Made by a program: the position numbers and the translations under genes. Shown piece by piece: positions 27,174-42,059 of a DNA stretch of 64,000 nt (positions are counted from its first letter, which is position 1; each line of letters opens with the position of its first letter). Origin of the DNA: a virus; the IMG/VR virus record IMGVR_UViG_3300045988_181613; one strand, 5' to 3'. The notes beneath the pieces are model-generated. The model made no database searches. It saw nothing but the letters and a program-made list of their open reading frames with translations, and was not told the origin of the DNA.

Positions 27174-27189
27174 ATCTATTAAATTTTGA

Positions 27190-27197: not shown

Positions 27198-27251
27198 CGC
27201 AGGAAATGAAAAAGTAACAACTGGTTAAAGACTTTTTGGTTAAGATTAAGA

Positions 27252-29570
27252 TTATATAAGACAGGCGCCACCACTGCAAGCTGTTCCTATTTGACTACCG
27301 GCTTCCTTAAATTCTTGCTCCCATTCAACGGAAGTCCAATCAATAGATTCTTGCTTCTTAATTTTATGCCATTGATGGAAAATATTTACATGCTTTAAAC
27401 AATTAGCACATTTATATTCATCACCATCAAAATAATTAGCAGCGAATTTTTTGAAACGTCGAACCCAATCGATTCTTAAATGTACTTTATGCTGTAAATG
27501 AGAGGAAATTGCATTTACATCCGAGACACAAAGACCATCAATTTCAACAAGAAGTTTACCATTATCGAGATGTTTCTTAATGTAAGAAAGCAAATATTCA
27601 TCGGAATACTTCAATAAATCATCTGCTTTGCCAAGAGCTGCATTACAAGCTGTCCAGATATCATTGAATACATTCAATCCATCAACAATCAGTCCTGAAG
27701 AAAGAATAGCTCCTGAACCATATGTTTCTGCCAATTCTTTTTCATTGAGATAAGAAGTATAAGGTGCTTGAGGATAATCAAGATCTCCTCTTTCTGGTAA
27801 GAAAGAAAGTCCGCAAAAACCTTCTCGATGTGACCAAATCCATTCAGCGACCTTTTCCCATTCATCATCTCTAACGGAAACTGTGCAGCTTACATTCATT
27901 CGAATATCAGGCCACATCTTTGTAGATGGATGATCCCAATTAGTTCCATCTTCAATCCAATTCATCTTTGTCGAATAGATTCTCTTCAGAAAATCAATTG
28001 TAGAAAAATCGGTACGAACCATTGTATCTTCATCTAATTCAATAGGAAATGATACAACGCTTTCTCTCTCTGGATTCCAGAATGATTTTGATACAATTTC
28101 AGGATATACTTTTTCAATCTCATGAAGTGCCTGTTCATTATTGCTTGCCTGAATGTTGCGGATATACTTTCTAAAATGATAAGCATGAATACCGCTTCCG
28201 CAACCAAGTAATTGAGAAGCATTTCCTGAAGGCTTGATTACCGTTGTTCTTGCTGCTGGATTAATACCGATTATCTCAGCTACCAGTTTATTCGTGCTCT
28301 TTATTATCTCAGCACCATTTCTTTGAATTTGCTCATTAAACAAAATAGTCGGATTATCAGCCATTCCAGTAATTCCGACTCCAATTAAAGCATCTCTTTC
28401 CGCAATTTTCTTTGAAGCCTCTGAAAGTACTGGGAAATCAGTGTAAGCAGCTTGTAATGTACCTAAAATAGCAGCGGCTTCACAAGCCTTATAAAATTCC
28501 TCTTCTGTTCTAATCTTGGCACCATTGATTTCACATAAGTTACAAAAACCGAAACCATATTGTCTTCTACCAAAATCATCCTGAACATAAGGAATCATGG
28601 AAACTTCAGCACATGGATTAAGTACTTGATCTGGATGCGATAAGAAAATAATTCCAGGTTCACCATAATTTTGAATATACTGAATTAGATTCAGATATTT
28701 TTCTTTTGGAGTATCTTCAAAAATCACCGCTGAATTATTACAACGACACAATTCTTGATGAGTAATAAACCAATCACCTGTTTTACAAGAGAGCATTTCA
28801 TTATCATCGATATCAAATAGGGAGATCATTGCACTCCTTCTGATTCCTCCACTTATTACGGCATTTGCAATAACACAAGTAATGTAATGTAGCTCAAAAG
28901 GTCTTAATTGACGCATTTGTACCTTATCAAAAATCTTTCTGATTTTATCGTGACAAATCTTCAGTGGTTCATGACCTGGCGCTTTGAAACCACCTGAAAT
29001 AAATGCACCTGAAGGGCGGATCTGAGAATAATCAAATTCAATTTGCGGAAGATGATAATAATAATGTTCAATCAACATTCCAACAGATCTCGCCCAACCT
29101 TCAATAGAATCTGGAATGATAAAAGTTTCTCTTCTTGATTTATCTATTCCTAATAAAATAGGAAGTTGATTCGTATGCTGCTTTTGGACGGAATAACCCA
29201 CTCCAGCTCCAGCAAGTAATGCTTCCATACATTCTTCGAAAAACTCAACCCTATTCAAATAACTCGACATACAGTTGTATAATCGTAGATGGTTTTTAAG
29301 TAGTTGAGGGCCTCCATATTGAAGAGCTCTTTGACTTCCAAGAATCAATTTATCGTTATAAGCACCCCACGCTTTTTGGAATACTTCTTGGAAAGCATCT
29401 TTCTTTTTATCAAGTATTTTCCCTTCAAAGTATTGCCAATGCATTGCCATTACACGTGAAACTGATTCATTCCAAGTTTCTTTTTTACCATCTGATTTTA
29501 CTCGACTGTATTTCGAATAAAAAACATAGTCGGAGATTATATTCCGACTGTCAACATGTTCATTCTCCAT
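27252..29570 (-). CDS. nrdJ: Adenosylcobalamin-dependent ribonucleoside-triphosphate reductase (class II, monomeric type)
   Basis: 772 aa; active-site loop VLNPCAEVS; C-terminal redox pair GTACSGGACLI as in the Lactobacillus leichmannii-type enzyme. Confidence 0.8.
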   Translation of the reverse strand: MENEHVDSRNIISDYVFYSKYSRVKSDGKKETWNESVSRVMAMHWQYFEGKILDKKKDAFQEVFQKAWGAYNDKLILGSQRALQYGGPQLLKNHLRLYNCMSSYLNRVEFFEECMEALLAGAGVGYSVQKQHTNQLPILLGIDKSRRETFIIPDSIEGWARSVGMLIEHYYYHLPQIEFDYSQIRPSGAFISGGFKAPGHEPLKICHDKIRKIFDKVQMRQLRPFELHYITCVIANAVISGGIRRSAMISLFDIDDNEMLSCKTGDWFITHQELCRCNNSAVIFEDTPKEKYLNLIQYIQNYGEPGIIFLSHPDQVLNPCAEVSMIPYVQDDFGRRQYGFGFCNLCEINGAKIRTEEEFYKACEAAAILGTLQAAYTDFPVLSEASKKIAERDALIGVGITGMADNPTILFNEQIQRNGAEIIKSTNKLVAEIIGINPAARTTVIKPSGNASQLLGCGSGIHAYHFRKYIRNIQASNNEQALHEIEKVYPEIVSKSFWNPERESVVSFPIELDEDTMVRTDFSTIDFLKRIYSTKMNWIEDGTNWDHPSTKMWPDIRMNVSCTVSVRDDEWEKVAEWIWSHREGFCGLSFLPERGDLDYPQAPYTSYLNEKELAETYGSGAILSSGLIVDGLNVFNDIWTACNAALGKADDLLKYSDEYLLSYIKKHLDNGKLLVEIDGLCVSDVNAISSHLQHKVHLRIDWVRRFKKFAANYFDGDEYKCANCLKHVNIFHQWHKIKKQESIDWTSVEWEQEFKEAGSQIGTACSGGACLI

Positions 29571-29958
29571 TTTTAAGAGATTTTTTATTACGAATTTCTG
29601 GTACTATGAAACAAACAGGTATCCCGGGATACTGTCCAAATAACGCGATATGACCACTTTTCTCTACGTTATTATTCTTCTTTTTCATTTCATTTAATAT
29701 ACCGGTAAATATACTCTTTTCAACAGTTACTACAAACGGTTTGGGTTTGTAATTTTTATCCTTTTCAAGTTTTATACGCTGAATTTGAAGATGTGTTATC
29801 AAAGCTTCTTCAAACGGAATAATATCTCTTAAAATAGGTATTTTATTTGCGTTTAGAAGAGTTGCTTGCATCTGCTTTGAGACTTCATTATATAAACGTT
29901 GTTTCTCATTTAAAACAGGTATATACAACTTAGCTCTTCTTAATTTGATCGTGCTCAT
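29560..29958 (-). CDS. Hypothetical protein
   Basis: 132-aa ORF. Confidence 0.5.
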   Translation of the reverse strand: MSTIKLRRAKLYIPVLNEKQRLYNEVSKQMQATLLNANKIPILRDIIPFEEALITHLQIQRIKLEKDKNYKPKPFVVTVEKSIFTGILNEMKKKNNNVEKSGHIALFGQYPGIPVCFIVPEIRNKKSLKNGE

Positions 29959-30057
29959 TTTTTATATAATTTTTACATTTGCAATATTTCATTTTTTGCA
30001 TGACAAAAGCCATCATAAACACATGAATAACACAAAGCTATTCTTCCATCTTTATTT

Positions 30058-30273
30058 TCATAAAACATCACAGAATTTTTGTCCTTTATCTTCATTTAAC
30101 CATTTTGCATTATCAGGCATTAATTCTTTGAAACATTCAGGAACATCACCCTGGTGCCACCAGTTATTAGAAGTAATAACTTCACCGTTATTTTTAATTG
30201 CTGTCATCACTCGGCCGCCACAACCAACAAAATTCATAGAGCGATTAAATCCAGAGGCTACTGGACCTGCCAC
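30058..30273 (-). CDS. Hypothetical protein
   Basis: 71-aa ORF with GTG start; a 31-codon ORF (MFYENKDGRIALCYSCVYDGFCHAKNEILQM) overlaps its end in another frame. Confidence 0.35.
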   Translation of the reverse strand: MAGPVASGFNRSMNFVGCGGRVMTAIKNNGEVITSNNWWHQGDVPECFKELMPDNAKWLNEDKGQKFCDVL

Positions 30274-30292
30274 CCAAGATTCTCCTTCTATT

Positions 30293-32683
30293 CTAAATTG
30301 TACAATACACGAGTTCGTGACGAGCTCTTGTTACCGCTACAAATCTCAAACATTTTTCTGAATATAATGCTTTTTCCGATGTAGCCTTCGGTGATGGGAT
30401 TAAATTTTGATTTAAAAAGAATACCCTGTCAGCTTCCAAACCCTTACTTTTATGAATAGTAGAAAGAACGATCCCTTCTGTTTCATCTACAAAAATTTCA
30501 CTGATCCTATTTCTAAGTTCAAAAATACTTGGCCATCGTTTGAACAGCAAACGAAGAATCATACATTTCTCTTCTAAAAGAGCATAACTGGGGTGATTGA
30601 TAGCAACAGCCTCTGGAATTCCTTTTTCCATCAAAGATTTTTTCTTTTCTAATAAAAGAACATCTAAGTCTTTGATTTCATTGATTTTATCCAGAATTAA
30701 TAATAAATTTTCACCAAAATCTTTTCCCTTTATTGTAGCTTTCTTTTTTAACTCTAAAAATATGATAAATGCTGCAACCAGTGGAATGTTATTACGACAA
30801 AGAACAAAATCGCCTTCTTGCGCTTCTTTCAACTCTCCATTTCTTACAACACCTTCTTGCGCAAAAGGTGAAGCTTCTATTTTATCTGCAAAGGTCTTCT
30901 TAGCTTCCGCAACGATAGCCTTATCACAACGATAGGAGATACTCAAAGGTAAAGTAATAGTATTTTCCATTCTTTTATAAGATTCAAATATTTCCACTGT
31001 ACTTCCCATAAAAGAATAAATACAATTATGCGTTAAAATACCATCAGCCACATAATTTTGATTCCATCCAACTTCTAAAGAAAAGACTTTTCCTTTATAA
31101 GAAATTTTCTCCCAATTTTCAATATCTTTATAAATAGGCTTCGCCCTTGAACATTGAGAAGCTTTGTTATAATTAAAACCATCATAAATTATTACCTGCA
31201 TTAATTCTGGAAATATATTACAAGCATATGTATTAAACATATAAGAAATACCCGTTTTCCAACGTGAATCTTCTTTTTCTTTTTTAAGAAAAGGACATTC
31301 TATTTTTCTATCAAATACCTTTAATAGATTTATTGCATTTTGTTTTAATTCCCCATTAAATCTATTAAAAAAAGTGTTAAGCCCCTCTTGACCAAACATA
31401 ACATCTTTCTCTTTTCTGCAATTAAAAATAGTTTGAGGGATTCCAAATTTATATGAATAATATAATTCATCTAACCTGGCTTGTGATTTATCATCATACA
31501 AATTTAAAAGCCAAAGTCTATCTGCCTCTTCGCAATAAAATCGAAATAAAAGTCCTCCAGATCTTTTTGCACCTGTTACATAAGGAGTAATTCCTATCCG
31601 AAACCAATCTCCTTTTTGCATTAAATAAAGAGCAAATTTATTTTTTATAGAAGGTTTCCATCGCACATAACATATATGCTCCGGTGTATATTTAGAAGTA
31701 AAATCACCTGTTGTTACTTTATAAAGAATATCATCATATTCTCTCTGGGCAATTTTTAAAATTTTACTTTTAGAATTTTCACACAATTTTTTATATTGCT
31801 GTAATGATTTTTTCTTAATACGTTCATAATTTCCGACAAAACAATTATCATGCCGATATTCATAAGAAACAACACTTTCTCCAATTTGAACGTCTTCAAT
31901 GTTTTTTTTGGTTCCATCTGACATTAAAATCTTAGTACCTTCAGGTTGACATTGATAAGGATCTCCTACTGTAATAAATCGACCTCCTGGTTTAATATAA
32001 TTCAAGATCATTTCCCTTTGCAAAATATTAGAATCTTGTGCTTCATCTGTAAACACGACCCCATACTTAGGAAAATTCTCAGAGGGTATCATCATATAAG
32101 GAATCCAAAGCATATCGGTAAAATCCATAATAAATTCACTGACTATAGAAATCTTCTTTAATTGTTTTCTCCATTCTGCTTCAATCAAAGTTATGTCCTC
32201 AATCATTCTCTCTCGAAATTCTATATCTTTTTCCCAACAAATAGGAGGTATATCGTTTCGATAATCAATCGAAAGCATTTGCCGTAAAAAATTCCAAATT
32301 ACTTGGAGTTCGAATAAATATTTAGCTTGCTTTTTACTTCCCCCCTCTATGTCGTCCAAATCTAAAACTTTCTTTCCAATTTGAAAACATTTATTCTCTG
32401 AAATCTTAAACCTTACTCGGACATTTTGTAAAAGAGTTTTTAATCCTTTACTATGAAACGTTGCCACTTCAACTTGTTCGGGAACTTTAGTTTTCAATTC
32501 TTCTGCTATACTTTTATTGAAAGCCATGAATAAAACTCTTTTTCCCGGTGAAGTTCTTTTATTTAATTCCAGTAAAGTACTACTTTTGCCAGCGCCTGCT
32601 GTTGCTTCTACAACTATATTTTTTCTGGTATTTTCATACGCATCAAAAATTGCAAGCTGATATTTACTCCATTCTTTTCCCAT
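30293..32683 (-). CDS. UvrD/PcrA-type SF1 helicase containing an intein
   Basis: Walker A ATAGAGKS; FTDEAQD; motif III split as VGDPYQ / CIYSFMGS; TIHKSKGLEADRVF; FVAVTRARHEL. Confidence 0.9.
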   Translation of the reverse strand: MGKEWSKYQLAIFDAYENTRKNIVVEATAGAGKSSTLLELNKRTSPGKRVLFMAFNKSIAEELKTKVPEQVEVATFHSKGLKTLLQNVRVRFKISENKCFQIGKKVLDLDDIEGGSKKQAKYLFELQVIWNFLRQMLSIDYRNDIPPICWEKDIEFRERMIEDITLIEAEWRKQLKKISIVSEFIMDFTDMLWIPYMMIPSENFPKYGVVFTDEAQDSNILQREMILNYIKPGGRFITVGDPYQCQPEGTKILMSDGTKKNIEDVQIGESVVSYEYRHDNCFVGNYERIKKKSLQQYKKLCENSKSKILKIAQREYDDILYKVTTGDFTSKYTPEHICYVRWKPSIKNKFALYLMQKGDWFRIGITPYVTGAKRSGGLLFRFYCEEADRLWLLNLYDDKSQARLDELYYSYKFGIPQTIFNCRKEKDVMFGQEGLNTFFNRFNGELKQNAINLLKVFDRKIECPFLKKEKEDSRWKTGISYMFNTYACNIFPELMQVIIYDGFNYNKASQCSRAKPIYKDIENWEKISYKGKVFSLEVGWNQNYVADGILTHNCIYSFMGSTVEIFESYKRMENTITLPLSISYRCDKAIVAEAKKTFADKIEASPFAQEGVVRNGELKEAQEGDFVLCRNNIPLVAAFIIFLELKKKATIKGKDFGENLLLILDKINEIKDLDVLLLEKKKSLMEKGIPEAVAINHPSYALLEEKCMILRLLFKRWPSIFELRNRISEIFVDETEGIVLSTIHKSKGLEADRVFFLNQNLIPSPKATSEKALYSEKCLRFVAVTRARHELVYCTI
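31025..31951 (-). mobile_element. Intein (309 aa, class 1) in UvrD helicase motif III
   Basis: Cys1 at 31951..31949 (CQPEGTKILMSDGTKKNIEDVQIG); block B YTPEHICYV; ends VADGILTHN (Asn codon 31027..31025) followed by Cys+1. Central ~170 aa has no LAGLIDADG or HNH motif. Confidence 0.85.
31878..31915. repeat. 38-nt stretch identical to 52673..52710 (intein block A region)
   Basis: TCTCCAATTTGAACGTCTTCAATGTTTTTTTTGGTTCC in both; encodes GTKKNIEDVQIG(E/D) of the UvrD and DnaE inteins. Confidence 0.9.
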
Positions 32684-32701
32684 TATGTTTCTAAAATTAT
32701 C

Positions 32702-33397
32702 TTAGTTTTCCAATTCTATATCTAATTTACCAGTATCATATAAATCCATAAGCCAACCAAAATTATTATTTTTACAAACCTCTCTTAATTCAGATATATC
32801 TCTCTGCCTGCATGGACCAATATGATGAGTAAATTCATTTTCATTACCAAAATCACAATCTTCTCTTTCGACAATAATAACATCCGAATTTTCATGATAG
32901 AAGTAAGCTAAATTATTTACCAAATCAATTTCATATTCTTTGAATTGTTTATAACTTGCCAGTTGATCTGCTATAAAATTACCTCGTGTGAGTGGATTCT
33001 CATAATCCTTTTGATGACCTGGAATCCACTTCAATTTCAACCTCATTAATCGATGTTTTTGTATTTCCTTGAAAATAGCATCCAATAAATCAAAATTTTC
33101 AAATTGAAATTCCAATAAATTGTTTTTCCAATCAAAAATTTTTTCTTGAATCATTTTTACTGAATACTCGGAATCACTATAAAGATAAACAGTTACAACT
33201 TGATCTACTTTAACAGCTCTCAATGCATATAAGATAGCCCTTAATTCCATCCGGCTTATTGTCGTATTTTTATATCCTTTCTGAATGGTAAATTCTTTGT
33301 CTTCCCATTGGATATAAACGCCAAAGCCACCTCTTTTTTCAGGATCTTTGGCATAACAAGAACCATCTGTAAATATTGTTATCTCTTTCTTTTTCAT
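32702..33397 (-). CDS. rnhA: Ribonuclease HI
   Basis: FTDGSC...GGFGVY...TISRMELRAILYAL...YSDSEY...IPGHQ...GNFIADQLA: canonical D-E-D-H-D RNase H1 order. Confidence 0.85.
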   Translation of the reverse strand: MKKKEITIFTDGSCYAKDPEKRGGFGVYIQWEDKEFTIQKGYKNTTISRMELRAILYALRAVKVDQVVTVYLYSDSEYSVKMIQEKIFDWKNNLLEFQFENFDLLDAIFKEIQKHRLMRLKLKWIPGHQKDYENPLTRGNFIADQLASYKQFKEYEIDLVNNLAYFYHENSDVIIVEREDCDFGNENEFTHHIGPCRQRDISELREVCKNNNFGWLMDLYDTGKLDIELEN

Positions 33398-33432
33398 ATA
33401 TAAATATACAAAGATTAATTCAATAATCCGAT

Positions 33433-36180
33433 CTACTTGGTATCTCTATAACTACTAATTAATTCTAACGATACATCATCTACAAATCCCTTATTAATTG
33501 TATCTGCAACTTCTTTCTTTTCTTTCAATAATTTCCAAATTTTCATATCAATGGTTTCAGTACTTAACAAATAATAAATATTAATGTTTGATTTTTGTCC
33601 CATTCTTTCAAGTCGACCAATCGCTTGAACTAAATCACTTGGTTTCATAGGAAGCTCAATAATTAGTGCATTAGAACAGGCTTCTTGCAAACCATCAACT
33701 CCAGTGCCAATACACTGAATATTTGCAAATAAAATTCTTGTATTTGGATCAGTAATAAACTCCTCCTTAACTTTCATCTTTTTAGAAAGAGAAAGATCCC
33801 CTGTGATCAAACAACTATTCTCTATTTGTTGAGCCATTTCTATTAAAGGTTTCTTATGGATACCGAATACAATCAATTTTTCATCTTCATTTGCTTCCAT
33901 CCATTCTTTTATAAAAACAATCATTTGTTTTTGTTTCCCTTCTACAGAAAGCTGGAACAAAACATTTAATTGAACCAATTGATCCGCTCTTAATGCTTTT
34001 TCTATCTGATCTGGATTTACCTTTTCCAAATAATTAATAAGATCTTCCTCAGCCTGTGTATAAACTTTTTTATTGCTGATTTTCATTTCAATGAGCTGTT
34101 CTGTAATAGGAGGGAGCTCGTTTAATACTTCTCTCTTTTCTTTTCTAAAATAACAGTAGTGTCTTAACAACAAATGGAGTTCTTCAATATTACTACAACA
34201 AGAAACATCCCTTCCAAACTCTGTTACTTTCGCATTACAGTACCTGAAATCAAAATAATTGCTATCTGGAAATATATCAGTAAAGCGACCTAAAAATTTC
34301 AAAACATTTTTAAGTTCGCTTGGACGATTCATTATTATTGTACCACTTAAACCAATTCGTGTATTTATTTTAGAAGCTATTTGAATAAAAGCTTGGCTTC
34401 TCATAGCTTGACGATTTTTTAGAAGGTGAATTTCATCACCTACAATTGCATAATATTTATTTTGAATAAGTTCTGGAAATTTTACAATAACTTGCTTCTT
34501 TACTTTATTCAATAATTTTTTCTCTTCAAATTTTCCCAATAAATCATAGTTGATAACAACAACATCAGCTTCCCAATTCTGTTTTTTACCTGAATTAATT
34601 ATAGAAAGAGATCTATTTGGATTCCAAAGACTCCATTCTTTTTTCCATCCTTCCTTTACTGTTGAAGGGCAAACAATAATACAGGGAAACAAATCAAGTA
34701 ATTCTAAATAAATAATGGTTTGTGCTGTATTATGTGTCAATAAGCAATCTTCTCCACAAACATATAAAGCATCAGGGTTAGATACTTTAATACACTGCAT
34801 TTCCTTTTTTCCAATATATTCAACTTTGCAAATACTTCTATTAGGTGCTGTTTTTTTTGAATCGAGCAATAAATCTCTTTTTCTTTTTAATCTACAAGGA
34901 ATTATATCAGAGGGAAGATTGATTCCAATTCTATAATGTTCTCTACATTCCACTTTTTCTTTTTTAGAATTTACATAATAACTTCTTTTAGTTCTAATAG
35001 GATTGTGTATTCCTCCCAAACTTTTAACAATAAAGCCAACTTGCTCAACCAATTTTTTAGAAGTACAACCGAACTCTATAAGACCTGATTTAGAAATATA
35101 ACCATCAGAATCTAATATTCCTTGTAAGATCGCTAAACGAATTTCTTTTTTATTATAAATATAATCTTCAGGAATTTCTTTTTCATAAGAATATTTTTCC
35201 ATTAAATTATATTGTTCCAATATTTTTTTTACTCGATTTTGTCTTTTACTTATAGAATCAATAATATTGTAATCAAGTTTCTCTCCTGTCTTTTTCAAAA
35301 AACAACCTTCTGGGAACTTTAAATAAGTCAATATTTCTTTATCCGCACAAGATACTTTGGGATTTCTCCTTAAACAACCGTCTCCAATTAAAAAACCTAA
35401 AGTATAAGGATCAAGTAAAATTTTTCTTTCTTCAAATTCAATAGGATTTTTTATTATAGGGAGTTTCCATTTCCAATATCCCTTACTTTCATGTCCTTTT
35501 ATTCTTGTATTATTGCAAGATTTACCTCTTAATGGTGCATTCATTATTTCTTTTAAAGTTATGACTTGCAATGGATTCGTTTGCTTCCATGCACGAACAG
35601 ACCAAAAATGTTCATCGCAACATTCGACTGAAGATCCATCTGTAAAAGTTACTTTATAACAATCTTTTATTCCTTGAGGATAAACAGCTTCTATTTTTTG
35701 AGAATATCCATCTGAACCAAAAATTATATCGCCAGATTTTAAATCTCCAAAATTAACTAATCCTTTAGGTGTCGGAATTTTCATATCCAAAGGCTGAGCC
35801 TTACCCAAACCTACATCTGATCCATTTATACAATTTCCATGATTAAGCATGTAATGGATACCTTCGATCTGATAATCACGAGGTATCCTTTTTAAATTTA
35901 ATTCTGGTATCAGTAGTTTAACATCTTGAATAGAAATTTTTTCTCTAATAGGAGAAAGCTTAACATCTCTTTCCCTTTCTGGATATGCTTCTTTGAATTT
36001 ATTTTCCTCAATAAATTTATTGAGTATACCAATATTCCAAATTTCGGCTTTGACATACCATTCAAAATTTGCAGGATTCCAACTTCCTTTAAACCTGTTT
36101 TTAATCTCATTTAAGAGATCTTGATTATAGTCAAAACCGAAATAATAATAACCTTTCTCCTTATAAAAATATCTTTTCAT
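33433..36180 (-). CDS. SNF2-family helicase containing an intein
   Basis: DYQIEGIHYM; motif I split as DVGLGK / TAQTIIY; DEIHLLKN; LSGTIIMNRPSEL; QAIGRLERMGQKSNINIYYL. Confidence 0.9.
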   Translation of the reverse strand: MKRYFYKEKGYYYFGFDYNQDLLNEIKNRFKGSWNPANFEWYVKAEIWNIGILNKFIEENKFKEAYPERERDVKLSPIREKISIQDVKLLIPELNLKRIPRDYQIEGIHYMLNHGNCINGSDVGLGKAQPLDMKIPTPKGLVNFGDLKSGDIIFGSDGYSQKIEAVYPQGIKDCYKVTFTDGSSVECCDEHFWSVRAWKQTNPLQVITLKEIMNAPLRGKSCNNTRIKGHESKGYWKWKLPIIKNPIEFEERKILLDPYTLGFLIGDGCLRRNPKVSCADKEILTYLKFPEGCFLKKTGEKLDYNIIDSISKRQNRVKKILEQYNLMEKYSYEKEIPEDYIYNKKEIRLAILQGILDSDGYISKSGLIEFGCTSKKLVEQVGFIVKSLGGIHNPIRTKRSYYVNSKKEKVECREHYRIGINLPSDIIPCRLKRKRDLLLDSKKTAPNRSICKVEYIGKKEMQCIKVSNPDALYVCGEDCLLTHNTAQTIIYLELLDLFPCIIVCPSTVKEGWKKEWSLWNPNRSLSIINSGKKQNWEADVVVINYDLLGKFEEKKLLNKVKKQVIVKFPELIQNKYYAIVGDEIHLLKNRQAMRSQAFIQIASKINTRIGLSGTIIMNRPSELKNVLKFLGRFTDIFPDSNYFDFRYCNAKVTEFGRDVSCCSNIEELHLLLRHYCYFRKEKREVLNELPPITEQLIEMKISNKKVYTQAEEDLINYLEKVNPDQIEKALRADQLVQLNVLFQLSVEGKQKQMIVFIKEWMEANEDEKLIVFGIHKKPLIEMAQQIENSCLITGDLSLSKKMKVKEEFITDPNTRILFANIQCIGTGVDGLQEACSNALIIELPMKPSDLVQAIGRLERMGQKSNINIYYLLSTETIDMKIWKLLKEKKEVADTINKGFVDDVSLELISSYRDTK
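34729..35799 (-). mobile_element. Class 3 intein (357 aa) with LAGLIDADG endonuclease, in SNF2 motif I
   Basis: Starts with Ala (AQPLDMKIPTPKG, codon 35799..35797). Block B CDEHFW (Trp at B:12); block F MQCIKV (Cys at F:4); ends LLTHN (Thr at G:5; Asn codon 34731..34729) with Thr+1. LAGLIDADG motifs LGFLIGDGCL and LQGILDSDGYI. Confidence 0.8.
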
Positions 36181-36653
36181 TTATTCTTAAACACCTTTAC
36201 CAATACAAGAATTATAATTCCAAGAACTATTAAGGCTCCACTTGTAAATCCTTTCCAAAACCAATTCCATTTATTGGGAGCTGCTTTAACTTCTTCTTGT
36301 AATTGTTCATTCTGCTTATTGACCTTCGTTAATTCTTCAGTTAATACTTGGATCTTCAATTCTAAACTATCACAAGATGCAGTTACAAGTAACGTCCCAT
36401 CTTCTTGTTTCTCAACCGAGACAGTTGCTTGTCCTTTTTTCTCTTCTTTCTTCTCACCTACATCTAACTTATCTGGAAGTACAACTAAAGGTACATATGA
36501 TCCTGGTATTTTTATCAAACTATCTCCTGATGTTTTTTTCCAATACAAAGAATCATTTAAAGTTACAGTGAGATTAGTATTCTTGGTAGGAGTACTTCTA
36601 CAACCTACCAAGATACACATAAACACAAATACTATGCAAAACAGTTTCTTCAT
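36177..36653 (-). CDS. Lipoprotein with C-terminal TM anchor (u-spanin-like topology)
   Basis: MKKLFCIVFVFMCILVGC lipobox; coiled coil LELKIQVLTEELTKVNKQNEQLQEEV; C-terminal TM GFTSGALIVLGIIILVLVKVF. Confidence 0.55.
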   Translation of the reverse strand: MKKLFCIVFVFMCILVGCRSTPTKNTNLTVTLNDSLYWKKTSGDSLIKIPGSYVPLVVLPDKLDVGEKKEEKKGQATVSVEKQEDGTLLVTASCDSLELKIQVLTEELTKVNKQNEQLQEEVKAAPNKWNWFWKGFTSGALIVLGIIILVLVKVFKNK

Positions 36654-37960
36654 TTTTCAATAGTGATTAGTTCACTTGCATATGGAAGTGACTCGATCCA
36701 TTCACAAAATTCATGCCATACTGGCAATCTATGATTTTTTCTTTGAAAATAGATCCTACGAAGTGTCTGATAAGAAAATACTTGGATTCTTTTTTGAATA
36801 AAAGATTCTGGAAGTAATTCTTTGATCCTTCGTACATATTCGAAATCTTCGGTTTCTTGATACATAGAGGCTAATTCGTTGATAGAATCAATAGTCTGCT
36901 CATATATAGAAGCTAAACGAAACCAATAAGCAAGCTCTGAATCATATTGATCTAACTTTCCTTCAGTATATTTCCATATAAAAGACGAATCTACATTATA
37001 TAATTCAGCAATTTCTTTTAAAGTTTTACCTTCTTTCCTGAGACTTTTCCATTCTTTTATAGAATCATCAGACCATTTCGAAGAATTTTTAAAAGCAAGA
37101 TATCTTTGATGTAAAGTAGTCTCTCTTAAACCTGTATCAAAAGCATGTTTAGTGTTAATACTACTTGTACACCATTCAAGATTCGACGGAGAACAATTCC
37201 CTTTGTTACCATCAATATGATTTACAACTGGAAATTCATTAGGATTTGGACAAAAAGCCTCAGCTATTATTCTGTGAACAGAATAAGTTTTACCATTTAT
37301 CTTTCCTCCTAATCTCACTTGATAATAACCTTGTTGATTTCTAGTTACACCCAATTTGATTTTCTTCTTTTCAAAGTGTCGGATTCTTTTAATTCCGTTT
37401 CCCAAATCTTCTTCTCTATCGTAAGGCAAAGAAAAGATTTCTCCGTTATTCCATATCTCATATTCTCTACCTCCGTAAACTTTGACAATACTCTTTAATT
37501 CTTTAGGAGTTTCAAAAAACAAAGGCTGAATGATTCTTTCTTCTTTCTTAGGATCTAACATATCGACAACGATATCAGGTACATCAAAATTTCTGATAGA
37601 GAGATTTCCTTTACCTATTGTATGCATCGTCGATTCAGAAGATAGACGATCAGTCCCAACTCTATATGTGTCCAATTCTTGCCATATTTCTCTAGGGGCT
37701 TCAATTTCTGCATATACTTGCAATCCTCTGATAGCTTTCGCATGTTCATCACCTCTTTTGACAAGAGTTGACATAAGTTGCAAGTCTCTTTCATCAATAC
37801 AAAAATTACTTTTAAATGAGAGTCCTGTGCCCCTTGATGCCGGACCAGGAAGCCATTCTGCATCACTTCTCATTTCTTTACCAAAAGGCAATCTTAACGC
37901 TGCTAATACACTGACAAACCCTGCGATTTCCAATGTCGAAATCTTGAATCTTTCTTTCAT
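36650..37960 (-). CDS. ThyX-like (FAD-dependent thymidylate synthase fold) protein with degenerate catalytic motifs and an in-frame HNH endonuclease insertion
   Basis: DERDLQLMSTLVKRGDEHAKAIRGLQVYAEIEAPREIWQELDTYRVGTDRLSSESTMH parallels the ThyX core around RHR/SxRY. C-terminal VFSYQTLRRIYFQRKNHR parallels the ThyX NxRxLxxFxxxR helix. Confidence 0.6.
   Translation of the reverse strand: MKERFKISTLEIAGFVSVLAALRLPFGKEMRSDAEWLPGPASRGTGLSFKSNFCIDERDLQLMSTLVKRGDEHAKAIRGLQVYAEIEAPREIWQELDTYRVGTDRLSSESTMHTIGKGNLSIRNFDVPDIVVDMLDPKKEERIIQPLFFETPKELKSIVKVYGGREYEIWNNGEIFSLPYDREEDLGNGIKRIRHFEKKKIKLGVTRNQQGYYQVRLGGKINGKTYSVHRIIAEAFCPNPNEFPVVNHIDGNKGNCSPSNLEWCTSSINTKHAFDTGLRETTLHQRYLAFKNSSKWSDDSIKEWKSLRKEGKTLKEIAELYNVDSSFIWKYTEGKLDQYDSELAYWFRLASIYEQTIDSINELASMYQETEDFEYVRRIKELLPESFIQKRIQVFSYQTLRRIYFQRKNHRLPVWHEFCEWIESLPYASELITIEK
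36941..37489 (-). mobile_element. NUMOD4 + HNH_3 + HTH endonuclease module fused in frame inside the ThyX-like ORF (approximate limits)
   Basis: YEIWNNGEIFSLPY; YSVHRIIAEAFCPNPNEFPVVNHIDGNKGNCSPSNLEWCTSSINTKHA; GKTLKEIAELYNVDSSFIWKY. No intein junction residues at either side. Confidence 0.65.
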
Positions 37961-37967
37961 TTTTCTG

Positions 37968-39878
37968 CTATAAAGTTAATAATATATTTTCAAATTCTTC
38001 CGTATTTAGGATTGTAATTCCTAATTCCTGGGCTTTTTTAATTTTAGAAGAAGAACTATTCTTATCTTTTACAATAAGATGTGTGGTATTCTTTGAAACA
38101 CCGCTTACTACTTTATGCCCTTTATTTATAAGAGTATTCTCCCATTCTTTATTTCTGAAACCTGAAAAACAAACCGCTATTTGATTTTCAGCTGCTTCAA
38201 TTTTTTTATTCCAAACCATTGAAATTTTAATAGGATCTGCGTCTAACATAGAATATCTCTTGATACCTTCATTAAACACCATTGCAGTTGTTTCAGCCAC
38301 GCCTTCAATTGAAATTAGAATTTCAATAGGAAGTTCTTTAAGATCTAAAACACGTTCCATTGCAAACTCAGGTAACTTATCAAAAATCATTTGACAGGTC
38401 TTTTCACCAAAAGTTCCATTGAAAACATTGTAGGCTGTTAATAATTTAGCAAACGGAACTCCTTCTGATTTTAATTTACCGAATTGGTTAGTTAAACTTT
38501 CAACTAATGAAGCTCCAATTCCTTCGATTTTATCAAAATGTATTACATTAGAAATGATATCGTTTACAGTCTGATATCCCGCTTCGTAAATTTTTCGAAT
38601 TGTCGGTTCTCTAAAATTATCTATTCCCAATGTAGTAAAAAAGAAAACAAGCTTCTGTATTTTCTTTTCTTTACAATCAGAATTTGTACAAACGAGTTCC
38701 GTCATTGTATTATCCCATACTAACGGTTCTCCACAAGAAGGACAAATCATCATATTATCCATTTCACGCCTTCTGTCCTCTGCATTGGAACGAATAGTTT
38801 TAATGTGTTTAGGAATAACATCTCCTGATCTTGCAATTACGATAACAGCATTTTCACAAATATCGTTATCACAAAGATATCTCGCATTATGAGCGGTTGC
38901 TCTTTGAACTGTTGCACCACAAAGATCGATAGGATCAAAAATCAATACTGGTTTTGATTTTCCATCTTTGGAAATATTCCATTCGATTTTTTTTACAATC
39001 GTTTCTGCTCTCTCTGACCATTCTGGATTTTTAAAAGCAACTGCATAGCGAGGATTACCATTAGGCAAGCGACCAAGTTTCTTCCTCAAAAGAGAATTAT
39101 TAACCTCAATAACAAGCCCGTCACACTTATATTCATTCAAATTCTTGAAAATACCATCTAAGAATTTTAAAATAGAAGCATTATCATTATTAAAAACACT
39201 GGCTGTTGTAACCCAATACGAAGTACAATAGTTGAATATTCTTTGTATTTCATCCAGTTGAACTACTTTATCAAGATCATCCCTTGAAGTCCCATAACGC
39301 ACATATTGCACATGCTGCAACATGTCTTTATTTATATCCGGGGAATTAAATAATCCTGCTACACAATTCCGAGCCGATTTATATTCACCCTTATTTTTTA
39401 AGAAATCTCTTATTGGGAAAATCGCTTCACCAAAAGTATATTCAAAACATCCAGGTTTAGTTGCATTGATGACTCCATTTTGGATAGCTTCATAATGTTC
39501 ATCTGAACGTTGTCCTTCCACTCCGTCTCCTCTTGTATACGCTTCACGCGACCATTCGTCAACACAAAGACTAATTCCGTCATACTTAGGAGTAATAATA
39601 ACTTTATCAGTTGGTGTAAGTTGCCAGTTATTTTGAATAAATTTCTTTAACTCCTCAACATCTTTAATTTTTTCCAGAGAATACATAGGAATGGGAAGTT
39701 TTTCCATTCGTGTATTAGATTTCTCTATTATTCCTCTTTCAAAAATTTTATTTCCAGGATCCATACTTTTAAGTTGATCTATCAATAGATCATACTCAGT
39801 ATCACTAATTAAAGGCTCACCTTTTCGATAAGCTTCATTACAAGTGATAATTCTTTTTTCTAACTCTTTTACTGTCAT
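37968..39878 (-). CDS. ligA: NAD-dependent DNA ligase
   Basis: 636 aa; adenylation motif PKYDGISL; Zn finger CPSCGEPL...CTNSDC; HhH region; C-terminal BRCT-like AVCFSGFRNKEWE...THLIVKD. Confidence 0.9.
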   Translation of the reverse strand: MTVKELEKRIITCNEAYRKGEPLISDTEYDLLIDQLKSMDPGNKIFERGIIEKSNTRMEKLPIPMYSLEKIKDVEELKKFIQNNWQLTPTDKVIITPKYDGISLCVDEWSREAYTRGDGVEGQRSDEHYEAIQNGVINATKPGCFEYTFGEAIFPIRDFLKNKGEYKSARNCVAGLFNSPDINKDMLQHVQYVRYGTSRDDLDKVVQLDEIQRIFNYCTSYWVTTASVFNNDNASILKFLDGIFKNLNEYKCDGLVIEVNNSLLRKKLGRLPNGNPRYAVAFKNPEWSERAETIVKKIEWNISKDGKSKPVLIFDPIDLCGATVQRATAHNARYLCDNDICENAVIVIARSGDVIPKHIKTIRSNAEDRRREMDNMMICPSCGEPLVWDNTMTELVCTNSDCKEKKIQKLVFFFTTLGIDNFREPTIRKIYEAGYQTVNDIISNVIHFDKIEGIGASLVESLTNQFGKLKSEGVPFAKLLTAYNVFNGTFGEKTCQMIFDKLPEFAMERVLDLKELPIEILISIEGVAETTAMVFNEGIKRYSMLDADPIKISMVWNKKIEAAENQIAVCFSGFRNKEWENTLINKGHKVVSGVSKNTTHLIVKDKNSSSSKIKKAQELGITILNTEEFENILLTL

Positions 39879-40389
39879 TTTTCTTCGGTAATTTGTGAAA
39901 GTTGTGCCCTCAATCCTTCAATGGAATCACATCGATTAGGAACGATTTTTTCTGCTTTATCTACCTTTTCAATGAGAATTTTGTATGCTTCAGGGAATTG
40001 TTCTTGTAATTGTTTATACGTATTGATTGTATCAAGAACACAACTTGACTTCCCTCGAATCTCTTTTCTGGTTTTCTCCAATCTCATAATCTTGGGAAGG
40101 ATTGTATTCTTAATTTTTTCACAACCTTTACTTGCATTAAAACGATCCCAAAATTCTGGAATTGCACCACTAACTTTTGGTTGAGATAATGGAATATGAC
40201 AACCTTCTATTTTATGCATTAAGCACTTTATGTAATTGTAATAAAACCCCTTTTCGATATTGCAAACATTAGGGTACTTCTCGGCGAACTCGAGAACTTC
40301 TTTTGGTGTATTTGCTACGACAAACTCATCTACTACCTCACCGATTTCTTTACGATCTTTTCTTTTTGATACTGTGCTATTCGTGCCAT
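39875..40389 (-). CDS. Hypothetical protein encoded in two frames; needs a -1 shift at an A5 run
   Basis: Track ORF 39875..40219 stays open upstream without an ATG (…KDRKEIGEVVDEFVVANTPKEVLEFAEKYPNVCNIEKGFYYNYIKCLMHKIEG). ATG 40389 (MARIAQYQK) is in the other frame. The frames meet at A-run 40363..40367. Confidence 0.45.
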
Positions 40390-40392
40390 AAT

Positions 40393-40710
40393 TTAAAATT
40401 TATCATTTGTTATTGATTTATACCATTCAAACTGATCATGAGAGAAAGAGAAATTTCTTTTCTCAATACTTAGAATTCTTTGTTCCAGAATTACTTTATC
40501 TTGGATTACAGTATGTGCTCCAAAGTTTTCAATAATACTGGTAACCTCTCTTCCTCCCATAACTTCATTAGCAAAGAAGTCTCTTGACTTGGGTCTAAAA
40601 TCATCAAAAGTATAAAATTTTATACTTCCAAATTGGCCAACAACTATGAGCTGTTTTTCCATAGCACGAACAAAAGCCCATGCATTTTCTATAAGATTAT
40701 CTACTGTCAT
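40393..40710 (-). CDS. Hypothetical protein
   Basis: 105-aa ORF. Confidence 0.55.
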   Translation of the reverse strand: MTVDNLIENAWAFVRAMEKQLIVVGQFGSIKFYTFDDFRPKSRDFFANEVMGGREVTSIIENFGAHTVIQDKVILEQRILSIEKRNFSFSHDQFEWYKSITNDKF

Positions 40711-40713
40711 AAT

Positions 40714-41043
40714 TTAATTTCCAAAAAATCTTTTTAACGTATTATCTGCATGAAACTTTGCCTCTTCTTTTGTATTAGAAGACATGGTATGCTCTTGATG
40801 TCTTTTCTTCAAAATATCAGCCTTTTGTTCTGCACTCATGCCATTAAATTCTCCAATATTGATATTGGGAACTGTAGAATTTCTCTCTTCAATAAGAGCA
40901 AGAGGTTCACCACAATCTCTACAATTTGGTGTACGGGAAGGAACTAATTTGCCTTCTCTCAATACATACTGAACTTTATGTCCAGCAATCGTTTTCCTAA
41001 AACCAGGACAATCCGGATTTTCACAAAAGAATTTTAATGCCAT
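40714..41043 (-). CDS. Zn-ribbon protein
   Basis: CENPDCPGF...CRDCGEPL. Confidence 0.5.
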   Translation of the reverse strand: MALKFFCENPDCPGFRKTIAGHKVQYVLREGKLVPSRTPNCRDCGEPLALIEERNSTVPNINIGEFNGMSAEQKADILKKRHQEHTMSSNTKEEAKFHADNTLKRFFGN

Positions 41044-41044
41044 T

Positions 41045-41218
41045 TTATTCCTCCTTAATTGAATTTAACAATCTCGACATATCATTGAGCTTAGCTTGAA
41101 ACCAGATCCATTTATCTTTATTTTTTGAATGATTATCGATTAAATACTGGATATCTCTGCTTACGCCTTCTAATCTATCTTCGATTGAAGATACGAAGAA
41201 TTTTTCTGTTTTACACAT
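41045..41218 (-). CDS. Hypothetical small protein (57 aa, below track cutoff)
   Basis: Own translation MCKTEKFFVSSIEDRLEGVSRDIQYLIDNHSKNKDKWIWFQAKLNDMSRLLNSIKEE; tightly packed between neighbours. Confidence 0.45.
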   Translation of the reverse strand: MCKTEKFFVSSIEDRLEGVSRDIQYLIDNHSKNKDKWIWFQAKLNDMSRLLNSIKEE

Positions 41219-41220
41219 GA

Positions 41221-41721
41221 TTATAGATTTTTTCGTCGACCATATTCCGCTATTAATAACCCATCCATATCCTTATGTTTGGATATAACGTAATTAGGAA
41301 ACAATCTTGTTCCTATTTCAAGAGAAGCTTTTTTCAACTCTTCAGAACCTTTGATTCCTTTTGGTAAAAGCTCTTTTTGCCACTCCTTGCTATCAATAAA
41401 TTGATAAGGTATTTTTAAAGTTTCAATAATTACCAGAGTTGCTTCAAAAGCTCTCAAAGCTGTTACTGTTGATTGAAATCTTGTTGGATTAACCATAGGT
41501 CTTTCAATCAAAGCTAAAACCTGTAAATTCGGACCAGGAATATAAACACTTAATTTTCTTTGCAATTCAGTTCCTACTATTCTGGAAATTTCTTTCTTGG
41601 CCTTTGTATAATCTTGTCCTTTTACCACTGGCGTTTTGAAAAAATCAATAACACCTTCATCTCTTTCAATAACACCTATAGTTCCGGTAGTGCCATTGTC
41701 AATACCAATCCATATTTTCAT
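41221..41721 (-). CDS. RuvC-like Holliday junction resolvase (putative)
   Basis: N-terminal MKIWIGIDNGTTGTIGVI matches the GIDxG catalytic-Asp start of RuvC-fold resolvases; 166 aa. Confidence 0.55.
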   Translation of the reverse strand: MKIWIGIDNGTTGTIGVIERDEGVIDFFKTPVVKGQDYTKAKKEISRIVGTELQRKLSVYIPGPNLQVLALIERPMVNPTRFQSTVTALRAFEATLVIIETLKIPYQFIDSKEWQKELLPKGIKGSEELKKASLEIGTRLFPNYVISKHKDMDGLLIAEYGRRKNL

Positions 41722-42059
41722 TTCAACATAATTTTATCATAAAAATTTTTCGTTACCCATTTAAGATCTCCTCTATTTAAAATCTTAACAACTTTAAATA
41801 AGAGCGGACCTTTAAATGGATATAATCCACATACAAATATAGAGCCCCAATTTGCTCTACCGCCATGGGGAGCACAAATTGGCCCCTTTTTGGATTTATC
41901 ATGTAAAATCATAGCTTTCATCCTGTAGGTCCTTTTATCTGTCTTTACCTTATAATTAACCTCACAGCCTCGATATTGAGCTCTAACTATTTTACTTCCA
42001 CCTTTACCTATAAAGATATCTGTATTTGCATCCTTCGAATATCTTACTGAATATTTCAT
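41718..42059 (-). CDS. Hypothetical protein
   Basis: 113-aa ORF. Confidence 0.55.
   Translation of the reverse strand: MKYSVRYSKDANTDIFIGKGGSKIVRAQYRGCEVNYKVKTDKRTYRMKAMILHDKSKKGPICAPHGGRANWGSIFVCGLYPFKGPLLFKVVKILNRGDLKWVTKNFYDKIMLK

What the first reader, a model, noticed from the sequence alone, without database searches (positions are those of the whole stretch)
34729..35799. Class 3 intein (complete W-C-T signature, Ala1, Thr+1) in the phage SNF2 helicase
Seen: SNF2 motif I is split as DVGLGK | AQPLDMK ... LLTHN | TAQTIIY. The insert lacks an N-terminal Cys/Ser nucleophile (Ala1). Block B reads CDEHFW (Trp two residues after the His). Block F reads MQCIKV, with Cys where standard inteins have Asp. 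Block G reads THN, and the +1 residue is Thr. Two LAGLIDADG motifs lie in between. Established: class 3 inteins (mycobacteriophage Bethlehem DnaB, Deinococcus radiodurans Snf2) splice through a block F cysteine branched intermediate and are defined by this Trp-Cys-Thr triplet. Inference: this is a class 3 intein at the Snf2 P-loop site in a phage of a different host phylum.
Basis: partly seen in the sequence, partly recalled or inferred. Interest (0 to 1): 0.65.

Follow-up and report, generated by a model that had tools for sequence, protein, structure and literature searches.

The report
Class 3 intein in phage SNF2 helicase
A self-excising, mobile protein element (a class 3 intein carrying a homing endonuclease) interrupts the ATP-binding loop of a gut phage's SNF2 helicase; it is real and well formed, but it is one more member of a very large, already described family.

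Summary
Window 34729..35799 (minus strand) encodes a 357-aa insert, A1...THN357, between Lys and Thr of the SNF2 Walker A motif (DVGLGK|T). A sibling phage that is about 98% identical in DNA lacks precisely these 1071 nt. Its 558-aa helicase equals the conceptual spliced product apart from two Val->Ile changes.

Every sequence criterion for a class 3 intein is met:
- Ala1, with no N-terminal nucleophile
- His B:10 (H64) and Trp B:12 (W66)
- Cys F:4 (C336) and Thr G:5 (T355)
- His356-Asn357, followed by Thr+1

The blocks align in register with class 3 inteins that were characterised experimentally or solved structurally. These are the MP-Be TerL ("DnaB") intein, Catera gp206, Msm DnaBi1 and Mch DnaB1. 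They also align with SNF2 inteins of several Deinococcus species at the same GLGK|T site. The AlphaFold model (pLDDT 89.5) is a HINT domain plus a LAGLIDADG domain.

The intein looks mobile. Its distribution is sporadic among close relatives. It is 83.5% identical in DNA to the intein of a phage whose exteins are only 64-66% identical.

It is not novel. Thousands of relatives exist (3,955 clusters at E<=1e-30). Of the 146 newly retrieved among the best 150, 144 carry H-W-C-T-H-N. Relatives also sit unannotated in deposited Bacteroides, Parabacteroides and Clostridium phage genomes. Verdict: new member of a known kind, low interest.

The parts
33433..36180 (-). SNF2-family helicase precursor gene (915 aa including the intein). 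It carries motif I GLGK|T, DEIH (aa 582), LSGT (aa 611) and GRLERMGQ (aa 855).
35800..36180 (-). N-extein (aa 1-127), ending ...GSDVGLGK. The Lys-1 codon is AAG here and AAA in the empty allele.
34729..35799 (-). Intein of 357 aa (Ala1 ... Thr355-His356-Asn357). It is a precise 1071-nt insertion relative to the sibling phage contig L087.
35761..35799 (-). Block A (AQPLDMKIPTPKG). Position 1 is Ala, so there is no N-terminal nucleophile.
35596..35637 (-). Block B (SSVECCDEHFWSVR): Cys60-Cys61 (B:6-B:7), His64 (B:10), Trp66 (B:12).
35374..35400 (-). LAGLIDADG motif 1 (LGFLIGDGC; catalytic Asp140).
35101..35127 (-). LAGLIDADG motif 2 (LQGILDSDG; catalytic Asp232). The Pfam LAGLIDADG_3 match covers intein aa 220-275.
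34756..34803 (-). Block F (KEMQCIKVSNPDALYV). Cys336 at F:4 is the predicted initiating nucleophile.
34726..34749 (-). Block G (DCLLTHN|T): Thr355 (G:5), His356 (G:6), Asn357 (G:7), and Thr+1 (G:8), which is the Walker A Thr.
33433..34728 (-). C-extein (TAQTIIYLELL... to the stop codon). The Ala+2 codon is GCA here and GCT in the empty allele.

Best explanation

Predicted mechanism, by homology with MP-Be TerL, Dra Snf2 and Msm DnaBi1:
(1) The thiol of Cys336 (block F:4), helped by His64 and Trp66 of block B, attacks the Lys127-Ala1 peptide bond. The N-extein moves onto the intein as a thioester (the block F branched intermediate).
(2) The N-extein is passed by transesterification to the hydroxyl of Thr+1 (the block G branched intermediate).
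(3) Asn357 cyclises, assisted by His356 and positioned by Thr355, and releases the intein.
(4) An O-to-N acyl shift rebuilds the GLGK-T peptide bond. This restores the ATP-binding loop, which cannot be functional while it is interrupted.

Separately, the embedded LAGLIDADG endonuclease is predicted to cut intein-less alleles (...GGT AAA|ACA GCT...) in co-infecting related phages. Repair then copies the intein in (homing).

Shown here: the exact boundaries, the presence and family-wide invariance of every catalytic residue, the fold, and the presence/absence polymorphism with discordant intein-versus-extein divergence. Inferred: the chemistry of splicing and the endonuclease activity.
For: Boundaries: the spliced product equals intein-less P0004 apart from 2 V->I. 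Contig L087, about 98% identical in DNA, lacks exactly these 1071 nt.

Signature: A1, H64, W66, C336, T355, H356, N357 and T+1 are all present.

Alignment: the blocks align in register with Msm DnaBi1 6BS8, Mch DnaB1 6RIX/6RIY and gp41-1_WCT 6RIZ. They also align with MP-Be TerL, Catera gp206 and Deinococcus SNF2 inteins.

Conservation: in 139 family members, H B:10, C F:4 and T-H-N are 139/139, W is 138/139 and Ala1 is 132/139. Of the 146 newly retrieved representatives among the best 150 (50%-identity clusters), 144 carry HWCTHN, mostly with GK at -2/-1 and T or S at +1.

Fold: the AF2 model has pLDDT 89.5 and pTM 0.88. Foldseek gives full-length matches to endonuclease-containing inteins (TliVMA E 4.7e-18, PI-SceI, PI-PfuI). 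The best matches to the HINT domain alone are gp41-1 and the class 3 DnaB inteins, at about 2 A rmsd.

Endonuclease: both LAGLIDADG Asp residues are retained, in 130/139 and 137/139 family members.

Mobility: relatives with 99.6% and 79% extein identity lack the intein. Against L091, the intein is 83.5% identical in DNA while the exteins are 64-66% identical.

Definition and mechanism of class 3: PMC2807308, PMC6195587, PMC7664689.
Against: No biochemical evidence exists for this intein. Splicing, the branched intermediate and endonuclease cleavage are all inferred. Grafting W-C-T alone onto a class 1 intein did not give splicing (PMC7664689), so the triplet is necessary but not proof of activity. 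One class 3-like intein, Arth_1007, is a pseudogene (PMC3196547), although it lacks Cys F:4. Pfam's Intein_splicing model did not match this insert; only LAGLIDADG_3 did. No model coordinates were available to measure the distance from Cys336 to the scissile bond. A formal phylogeny with class 1 outgroups was not built.
Confidence: 0.9

Rival explanations
1. The insert is a decaying or splicing-dead intein (a pseudogene-like relic such as Arth_1007), so this phage's SNF2 helicase is inactive.
For: No splicing data exist. An inactive class 3-like intein is documented (PMC3196547). The sibling phage does without the intein. The intein has diverged more than the extein in the closest allele: 96.6% versus 99.8% identity to P0001.
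Against: Every catalytic residue is intact and sits at positions that are invariant in 139 relatives. The ORF is uninterrupted over 915 codons. The extein is 99.6-99.8% identical to its closest alleles, with and without the intein, with all helicase motifs present. Arth_1007 lacks Cys F:4, whereas this intein has it.
Confidence: 0.05
2. The intein splices by another route. One option is class 2-like: direct attack of Thr+1 on the N-terminal junction. The other is an otherwise standard mechanism in which Cys336 plays only the structural or coordinating role that Asp F:4 plays in class 1 inteins.
For: Ala1 inteins of KlbA type splice without a block F nucleophile (PMC2807308). Mechanism cannot be read from sequence alone.
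Against: Class 2 inteins lack W-C-T and were known only in archaeal KlbA. Here the full triplet is present. The closest sequence and structure matches for the HINT domain are class 3 inteins or gp41-1. Cys F:4 is invariant across the family. Direct attack by a Thr hydroxyl on an amide is disfavoured, which is the reason class 3 pairs a Cys at F:4 with Ser or Thr at +1.
Confidence: 0.04
3. The intein splices, but its LAGLIDADG endonuclease no longer works. The presence/absence pattern would then reflect vertical inheritance plus precise deletions or general recombination, not ongoing homing.
For: Endonuclease decay is common in the intein life cycle (general knowledge). No cleavage data exist. 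Only two synonymous differences flank the site, which is a weak signal.
Against: Both catalytic Asp residues and the LAGLIDADG glycines are retained and conserved across the family. The endonuclease domain is modelled with high confidence. The intein is about 18 percentage points more similar in DNA than its exteins between diverged phages, with a sharp step at both junctions. The distribution among close relatives is sporadic.
Confidence: 0.2

Closest known systems
Deinococcus SNF2 inteins (the Dra Snf2 intein group; class 3, block F branched intermediate detected by Brace et al. 2010, as cited in PMC3196547)
   Same: The host protein family is the same, and so is the insertion site (DMGLGK|AQPLD...VTHN|T in SNF2 motif I). 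Both have Ala1, H-x-W, Cys F:4, T-H-N, Thr+1, an embedded LAGLIDADG endonuclease and a similar length (328-348 aa versus 357 aa).
   Different: Identity is only about 32-35%. The Deinococcus inteins lie in bacterial chromosomes, whereas this one lies in a gut phage. Block B:7 is Asp in the Deinococcus sequences (DEDHLW) and Cys here (CCDEHFW). The D. radiodurans R1 sequence itself was not retrieved, so other Deinococcus species served as proxies.
Mycobacteriophage Bethlehem 'DnaB' (really TerL1-c) intein, the class 3 prototype
   Same: It has the W-C-T triplet, His B:10, T-H-N and Thr+1, lacks an N-terminal nucleophile, carries a LAGLIDADG endonuclease, and is phage-encoded. All blocks align in register.
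   Different: It starts with Pro1 rather than Ala1. It sits in the terminase at VSQDQ|...|TKNTF, which is not a Walker A K|T site. Identity is about 23%. The host phylum is Actinomycetota.
Msm DnaBi1 / Mch DnaB1 class 3 mini-inteins (PDB 6BS8, 6RIX, 6RIY)
   Same: They are P-loop insertions with Ala1, HxW, Cys F:4, THN and a hydroxyl residue at +1. They are among the best sequence and structure matches for the splicing domain (E 2e-9 to 9e-8; about 2 A rmsd).
   Different: They are mini-inteins without an endonuclease, hosted in DnaB. Block B is DxxH rather than CxxH.
Mycobacteriophage Catera gp206 intein (class 3 with Cys1)
   Same: It has HLW, RCITV, PTHN|T and a LAGLIDADG endonuclease. tblastn to the window intein gives E 1.6e-27.
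   Different: It has Cys at position 1. Its host protein and site differ (VELKSLA|C...). Identity is 26%.
Unannotated class 3 inteins in deposited phages: Bacteroides phage BS-TP3 gp36, Parabacteroides phage PF672P2 gp26, Clostridium phage phi8074-B1 gp42
   Same: They belong to the same intein family (32-36% identity). Each is inserted after GK of a Walker A motif, starts with Ala, and has H-x-W, C-x-C-I-x-V and VTHN|T. Two of them infect Bacteroidota.
   Different: The host proteins are other P-loop ATPases (terminase-, DnaB- or DnaC-like), not SNF2.

Membership tests
Class 3 inteins (Tori et al. 2010) | No Cys, Ser or Thr at intein position 1 | tested here: met
   Position 1 is Ala1. The boundary is fixed by the intein-less allele P0004 and by the empty site in L087.
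Class 3 inteins (Tori et al. 2010) | Trp at block B position 12, two residues after the block B His (B:10) | tested here: met
   H64-F65-W66 aligns with HQW of 6BS8, HLW of 6RIZ and HGW of MP-Be.
Class 3 inteins (Tori et al. 2010) | Cys at block F position 4 | tested here: met
   C336 in MQCIKV aligns with VRCVEV (6BS8), VKCIGI (MP-Be, Cys320) and VRCITV (Catera). It is invariant in 139/139 relatives.
Class 3 inteins (Tori et al. 2010) | Thr at block G position 5, followed by His-Asn at the intein C terminus | tested here: met
   T355-H356-N357 is present and is found in 139/139 relatives.
Class 3 inteins (Tori et al. 2010) | [quoted passage not shown] | tested here: met
   The +1 residue is Thr, the Walker A Thr.
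Class 3 inteins (Tori et al. 2010) | Belongs to the monophyletic class 3 clade (Tori & Perler 2011, as summarised in PMC3196547) | tested here: inconclusive
   The intein shows significant similarity to Catera gp206 (E 1.6e-27). Its best PDB sequence hits for the splicing domain are class 3 inteins or gp41-1. Of the 146 newly retrieved representatives among the best 150, 144 carry HWCTHN. No tree with class 1 outgroups was built.
Class 3 inteins (Tori et al. 2010) | Splicing absolutely requires Cys F:4 and passes through a block F branched thioester intermediate | not testable with these tools
   This needs mutagenesis and mass spectrometry.
HINT-fold inteins | A Hedgehog/intein fold formed by the N- and C-terminal splicing regions | tested here: met
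   The AF2 model has pLDDT 89.5. Foldseek matches inteins: TliVMA at 4.7e-18, PI-SceI, gp41-1, 6BS8 and 6RIX.
LAGLIDADG homing endonucleases (intein-embedded, two-motif) | Two LAGLIDADG motifs, each with a catalytic acidic residue, in an alpha-beta-beta-alpha-beta-beta-alpha core | tested here: met
   The motifs are LGFLIGDGC (D140) and LQGILDSDG (D232). Pfam LAGLIDADG_3 matches at 6e-8. The fold matches PI-SceI and PI-PfuI. The residues are conserved.
LAGLIDADG homing endonucleases (intein-embedded, two-motif) | Site-specific cleavage of the intein-less allele | not testable with these tools
   There is indirect support only: sporadic distribution, and intein DNA identity of 83.5% against 64-66% for the exteins.
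SNF2-family helicase (host protein) | An SNF2 N-terminal ATPase domain with motifs I, II (DExH), III and VI, plus the Helicase_C lobe | tested here: met
   Pfam SNF2-rel_dom matches at 2.9e-17 and Helicase_C at 1e-5. The motifs GLGK|T, DEIH, LSGT and GRLERMGQ are present.

The most novel reading that the evidence does not exclude
The vicinal Cys-Cys pair at block B:6-B:7 (ECCDEH, present in about 79% of this family) lies next to the catalytic His64. Together with the nucleophile Cys336 it could form a disulfide or metal-binding switch. SNF2 helicase maturation would then be conditional on redox state or zinc, as shown for the class 3 Msm DnaBi1 intein. Here that would be a phage-encoded post-translational control in an anaerobic gut host. 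Nothing here tests this. It rests only on conservation and on analogy with PMC6195587 and PMC7360933.
Probability: 0.1. Interest if true: 0.45.

Novelty: new member of a known kind. Interest (0 to 1): 0.2.

Why it matters
The direct value is in annotation. The gene should be read as an SNF2 helicase precursor carrying a class 3 intein, and the mature helicase is 558 aa.

The locus also offers a convenient natural pair. Two phage genomes about 98% identical differ by the precise presence or absence of this intein and of several other homing elements. The empty target site is therefore known to the nucleotide. That would make homing, co-conversion and the fitness cost of inteins directly testable in a gut phage lineage.

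It does not change the understanding of class 3 inteins. SNF2 hosts, Walker A Lys|Thr sites and a phage origin were all described in 2010-2016.

Tried and rejected
- Megablast of the gene against 50,697 phage records found nothing. Relatives are visible only at protein level.
- Pfam's Intein_splicing, Hint and Hom_end_hint models did not match this insert. Only LAGLIDADG_3 did. NCBIfam gave only weak matches to intein-containing RNR, DnaB and Tes models.
- Brace et al. 2010 (Dra Snf2) and Tori & Perler 2011 are not held. The supplementary tables of Tori 2010 are not held either. A text search for 'Dra Snf2' found nothing. The D. radiodurans R1 intein itself could therefore not be aligned, and SNF2 inteins of other Deinococcus species were used instead.
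- The MP-Be intein was first sought in Bethlehem's replication genes and annotated DnaB-like gene and was not found. It lies in gp11, the terminase.
A 5-sequence alignment worked.
- A group I intron or other RNA element as an explanation was rejected. The ORF is continuous and in frame, and Rfam and tRNA scans of the whole window found nothing.
- The plus-strand ORF 34715..34936 (73 aa) overlapping the intein was treated as spurious. It lies antisense inside a conserved coding region and has no support.
- No model coordinates were returned, so the distance from Cys336 to the scissile bond could not be measured.
Full report
**Observation**

The minus-strand ORF 33433..36180 encodes a 915-aa protein. 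Pfam assigns it SNF2-rel_dom (E 2.9e-17), Helicase_C, ResIII and a LAGLIDADG_3 domain. The sequence starts AQPLDMK and ends LLTHN. It is preceded by DVGLGK and followed by TAQTIIY. Joining the flanks gives DVGLGKTAQTIIY, a canonical SNF2 motif I.

**Boundaries**

A search of 5.8 billion proteins returned a 558-aa protein, P0004, and 558 = 915 - 357. P0004 differs from the conceptual spliced product at only two conservative positions, both V->I. Its contig (L087, Logan ERR11779415, 51 kb) is 96-99% identical in DNA to window 22066..46539 over most aligned blocks. One divergent stretch next to the HNH insertion is about 73% identical. L087 lacks precisely the 1071-nt segment.

In coding orientation the junctions read:
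- empty site: GGT AAA | ACA GCT CAA
- occupied site: GGT AAG | GCT CAG ... CAT AAT | ACA GCA CAA

The insert is therefore delimited to the codon, and no alternative boundary gives GK-T. The two alleles differ by two synonymous changes within 6 nt of the junction. The next differences are 40 and 54 nt away, and the background divergence is about 2%. This is suggestive of co-conversion or target-site immunity, but it is statistically weak.

**Class 3 signature**

Tori et al. 2010 define class 3 by four features: absence of a Cys, Ser or Thr at position 1; the triplet Trp B:12, Cys F:4 and Thr G:5; the block B His; and Ser or Thr at +1 (PMC2807308). Here the residues are Ala1, His64, Trp66, Cys336, Thr355, His356, Asn357 and Thr+1.

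The register is not just my reading:
- phmmer against PDB sequences aligns HFW with HQW of the class 3 Msm DnaBi1 (6BS8) and HLW of gp41-1_WCT (6RIZ). It aligns MQCIKV with VRCVEV and LICIEV, and LLTHN with VPTHN and ILTHN. The class 3 Mch DnaB1 chains (6RIX, 6RIY) are also hits, at E 2.1e-8 and 8.7e-8, but their residue-level alignments were not displayed. Overall E ranges from 6.7e-12 to 8.7e-8. The identity of these entries is confirmed in PMC7664689 and PMC6195587.
- I recovered the prototype MP-Be intein from Bethlehem gp11 (VSQDQ|PLALN...SHGW...VKCIGI...ILTHN|TKNTF).
- I recovered the Catera gp206 intein.
- I recovered SNF2 inteins from Deinococcus, Hymenobacter and Chloroflexota genomes.

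In a MAFFT alignment, blocks A, B, F and G and both LAGLIDADG motifs line up across all of these.

**Fold**

An AlphaFold2 model of the intein with 8-aa flanks, built on a 20-sequence alignment, has mean pLDDT 89.5 and pTM 0.88. Foldseek against the PDB gives full-length matches to endonuclease-containing inteins: TliVMA at E 4.7e-18, plus PI-SceI and PI-PfuI. For the splicing domain alone, the closest matches are gp41-1 and the class 3 DnaB inteins, at about 2 A rmsd and 27-29% identity.

**Family and distribution**

Seventy metagenomic SNF2 homologues carry an intein at the same GK|T site. H-W-C-T-H-N is near-invariant among them. Pooled with genome-derived relatives (139 sequences):
- His B:10, Cys F:4 and Thr-His-Asn are 139/139.
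- Trp B:12 is 138/139.
- Ala1 is 132/139.
- The two LAGLIDADG catalytic Asp residues are 130/139 and 137/139.

A scan of one genome per bacterial species found the same AQPL...THN|T intein at GLGK|T of SNF2 in Hymenobacter (Bacteroidota), Chloroflexota, many Deinococcus species, Planctomycetota and others. It also found it after GK in the Walker A motifs of DnaB, PhoH-like and other ATPases.

An exhaustive phmmer search of 1.84 billion cluster representatives found 3,955 clusters at E<=1e-30. Of the 146 newly retrieved sequences among the best 150, 144 carry HWCTHN, mostly with GK at -2/-1 and T or S at +1.

tblastn against 50,697 phage records matched 859 records. The matches I inspected are class 3 inteins by the same criteria. 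They are in Bacteroides phage BS-TP3, Parabacteroides phage PF672P2 and Clostridium phage phi8074-B1, and all sit unannotated inside 'hypothetical' or 'terminase' genes.

The literature already covers this ground. [quoted passage not shown] Class 3 inteins are described as monophyletic with a proposed phage origin (PMC3196547). The Lys|Thr P-loop position is called a 'classic' intein site (PMC5050341).

**Mobility**

Ranked by extein identity to the window protein, intein-containing and intein-free alleles interleave:
- 99.8% with intein
- 99.6% without
- 79% without
- 63% without
- 62% with

Against the 62% relative (L091, a 110-kb contig from a human gut metagenome), the intein is 83.5% identical in DNA. 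The N- and C-exteins are 64.0% and 66.1% identical, with a sharp step at both junctions. This is the signature of horizontal transfer of the intein between diverged phages. Together with the intact LAGLIDADG catalytic residues, it favours an endonuclease that is active now or was active recently.

**Host and context**

The window is a phage replication and structural region. It encodes a portal protein, NAD-dependent DNA ligase, RNase H, ribonucleotide reductase, SbcC, a UvrD-like helicase and Pol III alpha. GC content is about 30% in both the intein and its flanks.

The nearest cultured relatives of the helicase extein are Cellulophaga, Tenacibaculum and Bacteroides phages. The nearest relatives of the portal are a human faecal phage (64%), a Chryseobacterium phage and the Bacteroides DAC phages. 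A Bacteroidota host is therefore likely, but it is inferred.

**Mechanism**

The mechanism is inferred by homology:
1. Cys336 attacks the Lys127-Ala1 amide, activated by His64 and Trp66.
2. The N-extein passes from this thioester to the hydroxyl of Thr+1.
3. Asn357 cyclises.
4. An O-N shift restores GLGK-T.

Because the Walker A loop is split, the helicase cannot bind ATP properly until splicing occurs. No experiment supports this for this particular intein. The failure of a W-C-T graft to convert gp41-1 shows that the triplet alone is not proof of activity. The invariance of all catalytic positions across thousands of relatives makes a dead element unlikely.

**Verdict**

This is an ordinary, if very clean, new member of the class 3 P-loop intein family. 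The most useful by-product is the sibling pair of phage genomes, which differ almost only by homing-type elements (see the items noticed in passing).

Noticed in passing
window 31025..31951 (-), inside the UvrD-like helicase ORF 30293..32683: This is a second intein of 309 aa: GDPYQ|CQPEGTKIL...VADGILTHN|CIYSFMG, with Cys1, THN and Cys+1. Block F reads VFSLEV, so it is not class 3. The sibling contig L087 has a 487-aa UvrD without it, and there the +1 position is Asn (GDPYQNIYSFMG). No endonuclease domain was detected by Pfam.
   Followed up: partly
window 48626..54096 (-): ORFs 51787..54096, 50702..51487, 48626..50584: DNA polymerase III alpha is broken into pieces. The first ORF carries the PHP domain and the start of the NTPase domain, ending at ...GAGRG. 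It continues as an N-terminal intein fragment (CFLPGQKVLL...QCTKDHQF) fused to a GIY-YIG endonuclease, then stops. Next comes an HNH/endonuclease VII-like ORF. A third ORF resumes at Pfam DNA_pol3_alpha position 121. The roughly 55-residue segment that should hold the catalytic PDxDxD aspartates was not found by motif search in any frame of the window, and neither was a C-terminal intein fragment. This may be a fractured gene or a split intein with a piece encoded elsewhere. It remains unexplained.
   Followed up: partly
window 36650..37960 (-), especially about 36800..37620: A 436-aa protein of unknown function (phrog_6721) contains an in-frame HNH_3 endonuclease module, about 252 extra residues, with no Hint motifs. 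The sibling L087 has a 184-aa version without it. The adjacent stretch 36179..36799 is only 73% identical to L087, against about 98% elsewhere. That looks like a co-conversion or replacement tract.
   Followed up: partly
window 24407..24930 and 26195..27275: Two further segments are absent from the 98%-identical sibling L087. Each carries a free-standing endonuclease gene: ORF 24406..24903 (HNH, phrog_59) and ORF 26246..27016 (endonuclease VII-like). Conversely, L087 has about 1 kb of small ORFs that the window lacks at about 30291..30296. Almost all differences between the two phages are homing-type elements.
   Followed up: partly
window 34723 and 35800 (codons flanking the intein): The intein-plus and intein-minus alleles differ by two synonymous changes right at the insertion point: Lys-1 AAG versus AAA, and Ala+2 GCA versus GCT. 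The next differences are 40-54 nt away. This could reflect endonuclease target immunity or a co-conversion tract. The signal is statistically weak.
   Followed up: partly
intein aa 60-61 (window 35617..35622): A vicinal Cys-Cys at block B:6-B:7 (ECC[DE]EH[LF]W) is conserved in about 79% of this intein family. Mycobacterial class 3 inteins have DxxH at the corresponding position, and MP-Be has SxxH. A possible redox or metal role was not tested.
   Followed up: no
L006 (AY500153 Bethlehem) 7260..9971; L088, L089, L090: There are annotation issues in public records. The 'MP-Be DnaB' class 3 prototype lies in gp11, which is annotated as a hypothetical protein but is the terminase large subunit. 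Class 3 inteins in Parabacteroides phage PF672P2 gp26, Bacteroides phage BS-TP3 gp36 and Clostridium phage phi8074-B1 gp42 are not annotated as inteins. BS-TP3 gp36 is labelled terminase, but it looks like a DnaB-like or AAA ATPase.
   Followed up: partly
P0086, P0094; loci L076, L078, L080-L086: The same AQPL...THN intein family occupies the Walker A GK|T/S site of unrelated ATPases. These include PhoH-like ATPases, DnaB (GRPSMGK|AQPLD...THN|TAFSLN) and others (YGVHGIGK|...). This is consistent with repeated jumps between P-loops.
   Followed up: no
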